A DNA stretch of 64,000 nucleotides from Escherichia coli (lineage in GTDB: Bacteria; Pseudomonadota; Gammaproteobacteria; Enterobacterales; Enterobacteriaceae). Of this stretch, positions 39,934 through 57,798 are shown piece by piece. The position numbers and the translations under genes are program-made. How positions within the stretch are numbered: the first letter of the stretch is position 1; each line of letters begins with the position of its first letter. Below the pieces are notes generated by a model. The model was not told the DNA's origin, did no database searches, and saw nothing but the letters and a program-made list of their open reading frames with translations. The stretch lies in assembly GCF_003018255.1 (NCBI RefSeq), contig NZ_CP027440.1. One strand, 5' to 3'.

Positions 39934-40797
<864 letters not shown>

Positions 40798-40819
40798 TCT
40801 TTTTTGCCTGAAAACTAAA

Positions 40820-40848
40820 GCCTTAGCGTTCTGCGTTAAGGCTTTTTT
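40820..40848 (+). terminator. Rho-independent terminator after kdsA
   Basis: Hairpin GCCTTAGCG-TTCTG-CGTTAAGGC followed by TTTTTT. Confidence 0.7.
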
Positions 40849-40945
40849 CATGGGGGCCGGATACAAAAAGGGCCGCAGGCTGTTACCCCTGCGGCCGGTT
40901 TCGGGCGCATATTGCCATCACGGCAGCCTGACGCCCGTTTTCGCC

Positions 40946-41053
40946 TTACTTCCGGTTACGCCACCAGCCGACAATCGCTGCGGTAATAATTCCCGCCAGG
41001 ATCGGTGCTGCCAGGTCGTGCCAGAAAATCACGGTAAACTGCGCGAGCGTCAT
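40946..41053 (-). CDS. ldr: Ldr-family type I toxin peptide (35 aa)
   Basis: Hand translation of the minus strand gives MTLAQFTVIFWHDLAAPILAGIITAAIVGWWRNRK, nearly identical to the LdrA/LdrC peptides as I remember them; below the ORF-track length cutoff. Confidence 0.8.
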   Translation of the reverse strand: MTLAQFTVIFWHDLAAPILAGIITAAIVGWWRNRK

Positions 41054-41099
41054 ATAGCCGCCTTGTTGTAATGACAACATTTTGCGGCTATTCTTGAAT

Positions 41100-41167
41100 T
41101 GTTCTGGTTCAAGATTAGCCCCCGTTCTGTTGTCAGGTTATACCTCTCAACGTGCGGGGGTTTTCTC
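41100..41167 (+). ncRNA. rdl: Rdl-type antisense RNA (antitoxin of Ldr)
   Basis: Sequence ...TTCAAGATTAGCCCCCGTTCTGTTGTCAGG...ACGTGCGGGGGTTTTCTC matches remembered Rdl RNAs, including the terminal GC hairpin and U-tract; lies antisense to the ldr leader. Ends are approximate. Confidence 0.55.
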
Positions 41168-41457
41168 TTTCCAGCAACCAATGCCACCAGGGATAAAGCC
41201 CCCGCAACATTGCGCCTCACCGGATAACGCCGGCTTGGTGTGGATACTACGACTCAATTCATCTTCACTTCATCCCTGAAATGTTTGCAATGAAGAGTGC
41301 ATTCCGGTTTTTCAACAGCTGTTACAGTCGTTTCGTGCAGGTTGTGGTTCAGGCTCGCAATTCTGATTAACAACCTGTCCAGGTAGTATGAAGAAATACA
41401 ATAAGCAGGAATTTATATTATCTCCCCCGATTTCCGTCATCGGAGGAGATATAACTG

Positions 41458-42558
41458 TCAGGCAAATATCGTCATCAAATAGGCGGCAAACAGTGCCAGA
41501 TGCGCTGCGCCATTGAGCACGTTAGTACGTCCGGTGGAGAAGGAGATATGACACAGCACTAAAGAGGCCACCATCACCACCATTTCTGGCGCACCAAGTG
41601 CAAACTGCAATTCGTTACCCGTCATAAAGGCAATTAGCGTGACGACAGGTACGGTAAGCGAAATGGTTGCTAACACTGAACCAAAGAACAGATTCATCGC
41701 GCGCTGGACCTGGTTGTTCAACACTGCTTTTAACGCACCTAAACCTTCCGGCGACAGAATCAACAGAGCCACCAGGAAGCCAGTAAAGGCGACAGGGGCA
41801 TTCATGCTGTCGAGCAATGTCTCCAGCGGGCTGGCGTTCATTTTGGTCACCGCAATAACGGCAATCAGATGGACAATCAACCAGATAGCATGCCACAGGC
41901 TGCTATGGGCAGACGGTTTACCGTGATGCGGGTCGTCGTCATCACTGTCATCTTCGTGCTCGTAGACAAACAAACTTTGATGCGTTTTGGTCTGGATCAG
42001 CAAAAATACGCCATACATTGCCGCAGAAATTAATGCTACCAGTAACGCCTGACCGGTTGAAAAATTCGCCGCAGGCAGAGCCATTGGAAATACCAGTACG
42101 ATTATCGCCAGGGGGAACAGCGCAATTAAATACTGCTTGATACCAAACAGATTCATATATTGGGTGGCAAACTTGCGTCCGCCCAACAATAATGAAAAGC
42201 CAACCAGCCCACCGGTAACAATCATAATGATTGAATAGAGCGTATCACGCATTAGCGTTGGCGCGGCGTCGCCGGTTGCCATTAAAGCTGAAATCAAACT
42301 GACTTCAAGAATAACCACTGAAAGGCTAAGAATAAGCGAACCGTAAGGCTCTCCCAGGCGATGGGCTAATACGTCCGCATGACGGACAACACTAAAGGCG
42401 CTACTTAAAATACCAATAAGAGCAAGAAGATTGATGGCAATGACCACTGGTAGTGTCTGGCTGCTTCCCCACAGGAACAGCACTACCAGCGCCAGAACCG
42501 GGAAAATAAGCGAAGTCTCCTTGTGGCGGGTTTTTACCGCCTCTTGAGCATTTGACAT
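41458..42558 (-). CDS. chaA: ChaA, Ca2+/H+ (Na+/K+) antiporter
   Basis: 366 aa from MSNAQEAVKTRHKETSLIF; CaCA-family membrane protein with an acidic loop (EHEDDSDDDDPHH). Confidence 0.9.
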   Translation of the reverse strand: MSNAQEAVKTRHKETSLIFPVLALVVLFLWGSSQTLPVVIAINLLALIGILSSAFSVVRHADVLAHRLGEPYGSLILSLSVVILEVSLISALMATGDAAPTLMRDTLYSIIMIVTGGLVGFSLLLGGRKFATQYMNLFGIKQYLIALFPLAIIVLVFPMALPAANFSTGQALLVALISAAMYGVFLLIQTKTHQSLFVYEHEDDSDDDDPHHGKPSAHSSLWHAIWLIVHLIAVIAVTKMNASPLETLLDSMNAPVAFTGFLVALLILSPEGLGALKAVLNNQVQRAMNLFFGSVLATISLTVPVVTLIAFMTGNELQFALGAPEMVVMVASLVLCHISFSTGRTNVLNGAAHLALFAAYLMTIFA

Positions 42559-57293: not shown

Positions 57294-57475
57294 GTGATGG
57301 TGGTGGAGGAAGGATTACTCAGCGCTGCGCGCTTCGCCCTTCGGGTCGTTGCCTGCGGCCACGCTCTCTCGCTGGCGCTCGAGTCGAACCCTGGTCGAAG
57401 CTTCTCATCCTTCCCCGCTTGGGCAGAATATTTAATCGCGGATTCGTTTGAGAGTTCACGGACTTTTGAAAGTGA
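57294..57475 (-). repeat. tyrT-distal 178-bp repeat unit (tpr-type repeat) carrying a degenerate tRNA 3'-end copy
   Basis: AGTGATGGTGGTGG(A/G)GGAAGGATT occurs at 57293 and again at 57471 (178 nt apart); the downstream copy is the true 3' end of the first tRNA-Tyr gene. Confidence 0.6.
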
Positions 57476-57560
<85 letters not shown>

Positions 57561-57594
57561 AGGGGTAATTCAAATTTTGAGGTAATGCTTGAGA

Positions 57595-57679
<85 letters not shown>

Positions 57680-57713
57680 AGGGGTAATTCAAATTTTGAG
57701 GTAATGCTTGAGA

Positions 57714-57798
<85 letters not shown>

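What the first reader, a model, noticed from the sequence alone, without database searches (positions are those of the whole stretch)
40800..41457. Single ldr/rdl type I toxin-antitoxin module where K-12 has a tandem triplet
Only one 35-aa Ldr toxin gene (40946..41053, minus) and one Rdl-like antisense RNA (about 41100..41167, plus) are present between kdsA and chaA, in a region of about 650 bp. K-12 as I recall has three tandem long direct repeats (ldrA/B/C with rdlA/B/C). Copy number here has either contracted or was never expanded. The toxin gene is missed by the ORF track because it is under the length cutoff.
Basis: partly seen in the sequence, partly recalled or inferred. Interest (0 to 1): 0.45.

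Follow-up and report, generated by a model that had tools for sequence, protein, structure and literature searches.

The report
Single ldr/rdl toxin-antitoxin unit, contracted array
Between kdsA and chaA this E. coli strain carries one intact copy of the known Ldr toxin / Rdl antisense-RNA module where K-12 has three; about a quarter of sequenced E. coli share this ordinary state, and here it most likely arose by loss of repeat units.

Summary
Window 40946..41053 (-) encodes a 35-aa Ldr toxin (Pfam Ldr_toxin, E=2e-23, full length). Window 41101..41166 (+) is a full-length Rdl antisense RNA (Rfam RF01813, 87 bits against a threshold of 50). The 660-bp kdsA-chaA spacer holds exactly one long direct repeat (LDR) unit.

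The state is not unusual:
- 4052 of 5426 complete E. coli genomes carry the inter-unit spacer, meaning two or more units. About 25% therefore have a single unit.
- RefSeq already annotates this exact gene (WP_001563152.1) in genomes 100% identical to the window.
- Ldr copy-number variation was published in 2010.

The unit carries the sequence states of non-terminal array units right up to 41329, then switches within 5 nt to the flank that normally follows the terminal unit. That marks a recombinant deletion allele, which 17 of 5426 genomes share.

In the identical relative JNE23-011, the second ldr locus (bcsG-yhjV) holds four units where K-12 has one.

Verdict: a real feature, already known, of low interest.

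The parts
39943..40797 (+). kdsA, left flanking gene
   Evidence: ORF. RefSeq annotation of the 100% identical JNE23-011 locus.
40863..41335 (.). The single LDR unit: the core that is homologous to each of the K-12 units LDR-A, LDR-B and LDR-C
   Evidence: BLAST against the K-12 spacer. Identity to the first units of arrays in other strains is 98.3-98.7%.
40871..40896 (-). Intrinsic terminator of the ldr mRNA: a 9-bp GC-rich stem followed by CTTTTTGT
   Evidence: Terminator scan. Inverted repeat I12.
40946..41053 (-). ldr, the 35-aa Ldr toxin. It differs from K-12 LdrA by A7T, M8V and S29G.
   Evidence: Pfam PF13940, E=2e-23. Annotated in RefSeq as WP_001563152.1.
41065..41094 (+). Putative rdl promoter read by eye: TTGTAA, 18-nt spacer, TATTCT, ending 7 nt before the Rdl 5' end. 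The interval 41054-41100 is identical to K-12 LDR-A.
   Evidence: Sequence read. Identity to K-12. The consensus scan did not report it, so this part is an inference.
41101..41166 (+). rdl, the cis-encoded antisense antitoxin RNA. It is complementary to the ldr 5' UTR, 48-113 nt upstream of the ldr start codon.
   Evidence: Rfam RF01813 at 87 bits. Fold of -27.1 kcal/mol, z=-4.68. Own terminator stem plus U-run.
41054..41335 (-). ldr 5' UTR and upstream promoter region. The transcription start was not located. It differs from K-12 LDR-A at only two positions, 41140 and 41330.
   Evidence: Alignments.
41324..41336 (.). Recombinant junction. States typical of non-terminal units (A at 41324, C at 41329) switch to terminal-unit / right-flank sequence at 41335. 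The switch lies inside GTTTC (41330-41334).
   Evidence: The same junction occurs in 17 of 5426 genomes.
41336..41457 (.). Unique right flank, including a hairpin just downstream of the chaA stop codon
41458..42558 (-). chaA, right flanking gene

Best explanation
This is one intact unit of the E. coli long direct repeat (LDR). It forms a type I toxin-antitoxin module.

How it works:
- The minus strand gives a stable ldr mRNA that encodes a 35-aa hydrophobic membrane toxin.
- The plus strand gives the roughly 66-nt unstable Rdl RNA, which is fully complementary to the ldr 5' UTR and holds toxin translation down.
- This mechanism comes from published work on K-12 LdrD/RdlD and LdrA. It is inferred here from near-identity to the K-12 units.

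How the single-unit state arose: it is a common copy-number allele of a polymorphic tandem array. In this lineage it most likely arose by contraction. A recombination (or conversion) fused a kdsA-proximal, non-terminal 'A-type' unit to the flank that normally follows the chaA-proximal terminal unit, and the unit or units between were deleted.
For: Identity of the module:
- Pfam Ldr_toxin matches full length at E=2e-23.
- Rfam rdlD matches full length at 87 bits.
- The Rdl fold has z=-4.68, and both genes have terminators.
- The regulatory region 41054-41335 differs from K-12 LDR-A at only two positions.
- RefSeq annotates the same gene in genomes 100% identical over 22 kb.

The single-unit state is common:
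- The inter-unit spacer is found in 4052 of 5426 genomes, which leaves about 25% with a single unit.
- A systematic sample gave 15 of 60 single-unit genomes.

Evidence for contraction:
- Units cluster by position in the array rather than by genome, and W falls among the first units.
- At 41329, W has C. This state occurs in 11 of 11 non-terminal units, including one from the separate Escherichia lineage E1V33. It occurs in 0 of 16 terminal or sole units.
- At 41324, W has A. This state occurs in 9 of 11 non-terminal units and 0 of 16 terminal or sole units.
- At 41335, W has the terminal-unit state G.
- Most other single-unit strains carry the ordinary terminal-type end: LF82, NC101, KKo009, SC434, SCU-171, APEC O78 and 2017.09.02CC.
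- Two-unit arrays also exist in Escherichia sp. E1V33 and in a Pseudocitrobacter MAG, so arrays at this site are old.

Published mechanism: PMC4147584, PMC7472228, PMC2887945.
Against: - No expression or toxicity data exist for this allele. The T7/V8 combination has not been tested.
- The ldr promoter was not located, and the consensus scan found no promoter.
- The contraction inference rests on a few diagnostic sites in about 470 bp. Units at this locus are visibly mosaic: DETEC-S792 unit 1, FORC_042 unit 3 and E2348/69 all mix markers. Conversion from imported DNA could therefore mimic a deletion.
- A crossover in the last 5-10 nt of the homology is improbable a priori.
- How Rdl blocks translation (the ldrX coupling model) is unconfirmed in the literature. 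The upstream ORF that overlaps the ldr start codon is not conserved among units.
Confidence: 0.85

Rival explanations
1. The locus never expanded. The single unit is the ancestral, pre-duplication state, retained in this lineage.
For: Single units at the same syntenic site occur in Pseudocitrobacter faecalis, P. vendiensis, E. coli E69 and B2 strains such as NC101. Their units branch below the split between A-type and C-type units. Single copy may therefore be ancestral for some lineages.
Against: - W does not branch basally. It nests among the first units of arrays at 98.3-98.7% identity.
- W carries states exclusive to non-terminal units at 41324 and 41329, and derived A-type states at 41252, 41308 and the Rdl 5' end. 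It is nevertheless joined to the terminal flank.
- A unit that was never duplicated should show the terminal/sole-type end, as every other sampled single-unit strain outside the junction-sharing genomes (W's lineage, E2348/69, A25) does.
Confidence: 0.1
2. Assembly artefact. A tandem array was collapsed into one chimeric unit during assembly.
For: A collapsed 535-bp repeat would produce exactly this arrangement: left flank, one unit, right flank, with a chimeric end.
Against: The identical single-unit locus appears in four independent RefSeq assemblies from Japan, Mali and elsewhere, all from the collection of complete-genome-level assemblies (two are titled 'complete genome', one 'whole genome shotgun sequence'). 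The same junction appears in 13 more genomes, including several independent records of E2348/69. A 1.7-kb array is easily spanned by long reads.
Confidence: 0.03
3. A degenerate, non-functional relic of a toxin-antitoxin module.
For: The peptide has three substitutions relative to LdrA. Chromosomal type I loci are sometimes decayed (PMC2887945).
Against: - The ORF is intact, and the Pfam match is full length.
- The family signature is present: a PXXXG motif (P17-G21), tryptophans, then the charged tail RNRK (PMC7472228).
- V8 and G29 also occur in other Ldr copies.
- Rdl scores as high as the K-12 and JNE23-011 copies.
- The promoter and UTR region is about 99% identical to K-12 LDR-A.
Confidence: 0.05

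Closest known systems
E. coli K-12 LDR-A (ldrA/rdlA), first unit of the ldrABC array
   Same: - Same chromosomal site, orientation and gene layout.
- The unit core is 98.3-98.7% identical.
- Rdl differs by one loop nucleotide.
- The Rdl 5' end is the same (GTTCTGG).
   Different: - It stands alone instead of being followed by LDR-B and LDR-C.
- Its right end is fused to the chaA-side flank.
- The peptide differs at A7T, M8V and S29G.
E. coli K-12 LDR-D (ldrD/rdlD), the experimentally characterised member (Kawano et al. 2002, as cited in PMC4147584)
   Same: Both have a 35-aa toxin with the WHDLAAP core and an Rdl of the same Rfam family. [quoted passage not shown]
   Different: It is a different paralogue group, LdrB-group against LdrD-group. 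The peptide is 57% identical to LdrD. The chromosomal site is different.
hok/sok of plasmid R1
   Same: Both are type I toxin-antitoxin modules with a small membrane toxin, a long 5' UTR and an antisense RNA that acts upstream of the toxin start codon. The literature proposes that the two work similarly.
   Different: The toxins are not homologous. The Rfam sok model gives only a sub-threshold hit on the ldr 5' UTR (31.5 bits against a threshold of 59). A mok-like coupled reading frame is not conserved.
Fst/RNAII (par of pAD1), the Fst/Ldr superfamily
   Same: The toxin signature is shared: a transmembrane helix with PXXXG, a conserved tryptophan and a charged C-terminus.
   Different: The antisense RNA in Fst systems overlaps the 3' end of the toxin gene. 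Here it overlaps the 5' UTR.

Membership tests
Ldr toxin (Pfam PF13940) | Full-length match of a roughly 35-aa peptide to the family profile | tested here: met
   E=2e-23, 82.6 bits, residues 1-35 on model positions 1-35.
Ldr toxin (Pfam PF13940) | Fst/Ldr superfamily signature: a hydrophobic helix with PXXXG, a conserved Trp after the helix, and a charged C-terminal cluster | tested here: met
   The sequence shows P17-ILA-G21 and W30-W31 followed by RNRK. The signature is defined in PMC2887945 and PMC7472228.
Ldr toxin (Pfam PF13940) | Growth arrest or cell killing on overexpression | not testable with these tools
   Shown only for K-12 LdrA and LdrD in the literature.
Rdl antitoxin RNA (Rfam RF01813) | Covariance-model score above the gathering threshold, full length | tested here: met
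   87.0 bits against 50, model positions 1-66 of 66.
Rdl antitoxin RNA (Rfam RF01813) | Encoded in cis, opposite the 5' UTR of ldr, without covering the start codon | tested here: met
   Rdl lies at 41101..41166 (+) and the ldr ATG at 41053..41051 (-). The gap is 47 nt.
Rdl antitoxin RNA (Rfam RF01813) | Expressed, unstable, and able to repress the cognate toxin | not testable with these tools
   Supported only by the promoter region 41054-41100 being identical to K-12 LDR-A.
LDR tandem array (ldrABC type) | Two or more head-to-tail units separated by the roughly 70-bp inter-unit spacer | tested here: not met
   There is one unit and no spacer sequence in the window. The spacer is present in 4052 of 5426 E. 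coli genomes.
NCBIfam protein families | A hit to a curated HMM | tested here: not met
   No family at E<=0.01. RefSeq still names the protein 'Ldr family'; by what rule was not checked.

The most novel reading that the evidence does not exclude
All differences between Rdl paralogues fall in positions predicted to be unpaired. These are the 5' tail (41103-41107, three variants), an internal bulge (41127) and the apical loop (41140-41141).

These variants might be specificity determinants that keep tandem ldr/rdl modules from cross-regulating each other, as has been shown for Sib/Ibs. On that reading, contraction to a single type-1 unit here and expansion to four units at bcsG-yhjV would change the repertoire of non-cross-reacting toxin-antitoxin pairs, not just the gene dosage.
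Probability: 0.12. Interest if true: 0.4.

Novelty: already known. Interest (0 to 1): 0.12.

Why it matters
It matters little. The result shows that K-12 is not a reference for ldr copy number at either locus: K-12's three units here is the median among genomes that have an array, but its single ldrD is the minority state. It also gives a clean small example of tandem-array contraction that can be read from a chimeric junction. It is useful for annotation, because small toxin genes and their antisense RNAs are easily missed. It is also a caution for studies that delete 'all ldr copies' on the basis of the K-12 layout. It opens no new question.

Tried and rejected
- NCBIfam search of the peptide returned nothing. 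Pfam was used instead.
- The consensus promoter scan found no sigma-70 site in 40750-41500. The rdl promoter given in the report is read by eye and rests on identity to K-12. The ldr transcription start was not located.
- The ldrX / mok-like coupling idea was tested. In W, a frame ending in TGA that overlaps the ldr ATG (ATGA) is open for 67 codons. In other units it is open for only 3-30 codons, so it is not a conserved reading frame.
- The in-frame upstream ATG at 41080, which gives the 44-aa ORF, is ACG in ldrD. It is not taken as the start.
- Copy-number compensation between the two ldr loci was considered. In the systematic sample, single-unit genomes have on average about 2.3 other LDR places and two-unit genomes about 2.5, so no compensation is evident.
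- The weak Rfam sok hit (31.5 bits against 59) is treated as sub-threshold.
- The DNA Research 2002 LDR comparison is not held in the library.
- The mobilome preprint mentions ldr/rdl only as an RNA heteroduplex signal.
- The genome contigs pattern scan returned only 12 stretches. It missed species whose Rdl differs from the exact pattern, so absence elsewhere cannot be concluded.

Full report
**What is there**

The 660-bp spacer between kdsA (39943..40797, +) and chaA (41458..42558, -) contains a 35-aa ORF on the minus strand at 40946..41053. It reads MTLAQFTVIFWHDLAAPILAGIITAAIVGWWRNRK. The peptide matches Pfam Ldr_toxin (PF13940) over its full length with E=2e-23.

On the plus strand, 47 nt beyond the ldr start codon, Rfam's rdlD model (RF01813) matches 41101..41166 end to end at 87 bits. 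The gathering score is 50, and this is the only such match in the 64-kb window.

The RNA folds into the family's long stem-loop at -27.1 kcal/mol, z=-4.68 against shuffles. It has an unpaired 11-nt 5' tail and a U-rich 3' end. An intrinsic terminator for the ldr transcript lies at 40896..40871 on the minus strand. No second unit or direct repeat of this kind is present.

**Comparison with K-12**

MG1655 carries ldrA/rdlA, ldrB/rdlB and ldrC/rdlC in a 1729-bp spacer at the same site. The window's 660 bp consist of a 65-bp left flank, one unit and a roughly 120-bp right flank. K-12 has the same plus two further 535-bp periods.

The window peptide differs from LdrA at A7T, M8V and S29G. G29 is the LdrB state, and V8 occurs in other lineages. 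From 41054 to 41335, which covers the Rdl promoter, Rdl and the ldr 5' region, the window differs from K-12 LDR-A at only two positions. Nothing suggests decay.

**Origin of the window**

The window is 100% identical over 22 kb to E. coli JNE23-011 and JNE112863. RefSeq annotates the same 35-aa gene there as 'type I toxin-antitoxin system toxin Ldr family protein', WP_001563152.1. The same protein accession is found in strain 200164.

**How common a single unit is**

A query with long flanks, sampled evenly down the ranking of 5440 records, gave these counts among 60 genomes:

| State at kdsA-chaA | Genomes |
|---|---|
| One unit | 15 |
| Two units (some with IS200C or IS481 insertions) | 16 |
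| Three or more units | 28 |
| Locus absent | 1 |

The inter-unit spacer exists only in arrays. It is found in 4052 of 5426 complete genomes, with up to six spacers per genome. About 25% of genomes therefore have one unit. Single copy is an ordinary allele.

Fozo et al. 2010 already tabulated 2 to 10 Ldr genes per Escherichia, Shigella or Salmonella genome. They inferred an ancient LdrB-group / LdrD-group duplication followed by lineage-specific duplications and losses (PMC2887945).

**Contracted or never expanded**

I extracted every unit from 18 Escherichia loci and aligned them. A first round also included three Pseudocitrobacter loci.

Units cluster by position in the array, not by genome. 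The kdsA-proximal units of K-12, O157:H7, O26:H11, FORC_042, S1-SRB and 129130 form one group. The chaA-proximal units form another group, together with most single units. The window's unit sits in the first group at 98.3-98.7% identity.

Three neighbouring positions are diagnostic:

| Position | State in W | Non-terminal units | Terminal or sole units (outside W's lineage) |
|---|---|---|---|
| 41324 | A | A in 9 of 11 | G in 16 of 16 |
| 41329 | C | C in 11 of 11, including Escherichia sp. E1V33 | G in 16 of 16 |
| 41335 | G | A in 11 of 11 | G in 15 of 16 |

The window reads GTTACAGTC-GTTTC-GTGCAGG. It has the non-terminal states up to 41329 and the terminal flank from 41335. It is a chimera whose switch lies within GTTTC.

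This is what a deletion fusing a first unit to the end of the last unit would leave. It is not what a never-duplicated unit should look like. LF82, NC101, KKo009, SC434, SCU-171, APEC O78 and 2017.09.02CC are all single-unit and all have the ordinary terminal-type end.

Arrays are old at this site. Escherichia sp. E1V33 and a Pseudocitrobacter MAG each have two units between kdsA and chaA, while P. faecalis and P. vendiensis each have one.

The chimeric junction is rare. It is exact in 4 genomes and has one mismatch in 13 more, including EPEC E2348/69 and strain A25. Both of those are also single-unit but mosaic in other markers.

I put contraction at about 0.8. The caveats are the small number of diagnostic sites, the obvious mosaicism of the units, and the position of the crossover at the very edge of the homology.

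**Mechanism**

Work on K-12 shows the following (reviewed in PMC4147584 and PMC7472228):
- Overproduced LdrD or LdrA kills or arrests cells, with nucleoid condensation, loss of ATP synthesis and membrane localisation.
- Co-expressed Rdl relieves the toxicity.
- Rdl pairs with the 5' UTR rather than with the ribosome-binding site.

How Rdl blocks translation is unsettled. The proposed leader frame ldrX is unconfirmed. The frame that overlaps the ldr start codon in the window is not conserved among units. For the window, all of this is inference from near-identity to K-12.

**The other ldr locus**

In JNE23-011, bcsG-yhjV holds four tandem ldrD-type genes, each with a full Rfam Rdl match, at a 483-bp period. 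K-12 has one unit there. The junction between those units occurs in 3301 of 5426 genomes, so K-12's lone ldrD is the minority state. I found no sign that copy numbers at the two loci compensate for each other.

**Verdict**

This is a real, intact, correctly identified feature that is already known and already annotated. The only added value is the evidence that this particular single-unit allele is a contraction product.

Noticed in passing
window 57298..57798 (-): Three tandem tRNA-Tyr(GTA) genes with a 119-bp period (99% matches), followed by RtT RNA (RF00391, 125 bits). K-12 has two tRNA-Tyr genes here (tyrT and tyrV, 294 bp apart) plus rttR. This is another copy-number-variable tandem locus, 16 kb from the ldr site.
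   Followed up: partly
L005 23118..24788 (JNE23-011, bcsG-yhjV; outside the window): The genome that is 100% identical to the window has four tandem ldrD/rdlD modules with a 483-bp period, where K-12 has one. The inter-unit junction of this array occurs in 3301 of 5426 complete E. coli genomes.
   Followed up: yes
L022 unit 2 (E. coli O157:H7 ECP17-46, kdsA-chaA): The chaA-proximal unit has a 6-nt deletion at the position corresponding to window 41121-41126, inside the main Rdl stem. This may disable that Rdl copy.
   Followed up: no
L006, L007, L009, L010, L016, L017 (Pseudocitrobacter spp.): Both ldr loci (kdsA-chaA and next to bcsG) are present in synteny in another genus, with one or two units each. 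Both loci therefore appear to predate the split between Escherichia and Pseudocitrobacter.
   Followed up: partly
L015 (503-bp contig of 'Bacillus sp. EB106-08-02-XG196', coverage 0.66): It encodes a peptide 97% identical to E. coli LdrD together with an Rdl pattern match. This is very likely enterobacterial contamination in a Bacillus assembly.
   Followed up: no
kdsA-chaA spacers of other strains (e.g. Ecol_545, DA33137, UTME-10): IS200C and IS481-family insertions inside the LDR region are recurrent in some lineages.
   Followed up: no
window 41051..41203 (-): There is a sub-threshold Rfam hit of the sok model on the ldr 5' UTR (31.5 bits, gathering score 59). It echoes the proposed hok/sok-like regulation but is not evidence on its own.
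   Followed up: no
window 41103..41107, 41127, 41140..41141 (+): All sequence differences among Rdl paralogues (K-12 A, B, C and the other strains) fall in predicted unpaired positions of Rdl. There are three distinct 5'-tail variants.
   Followed up: partly
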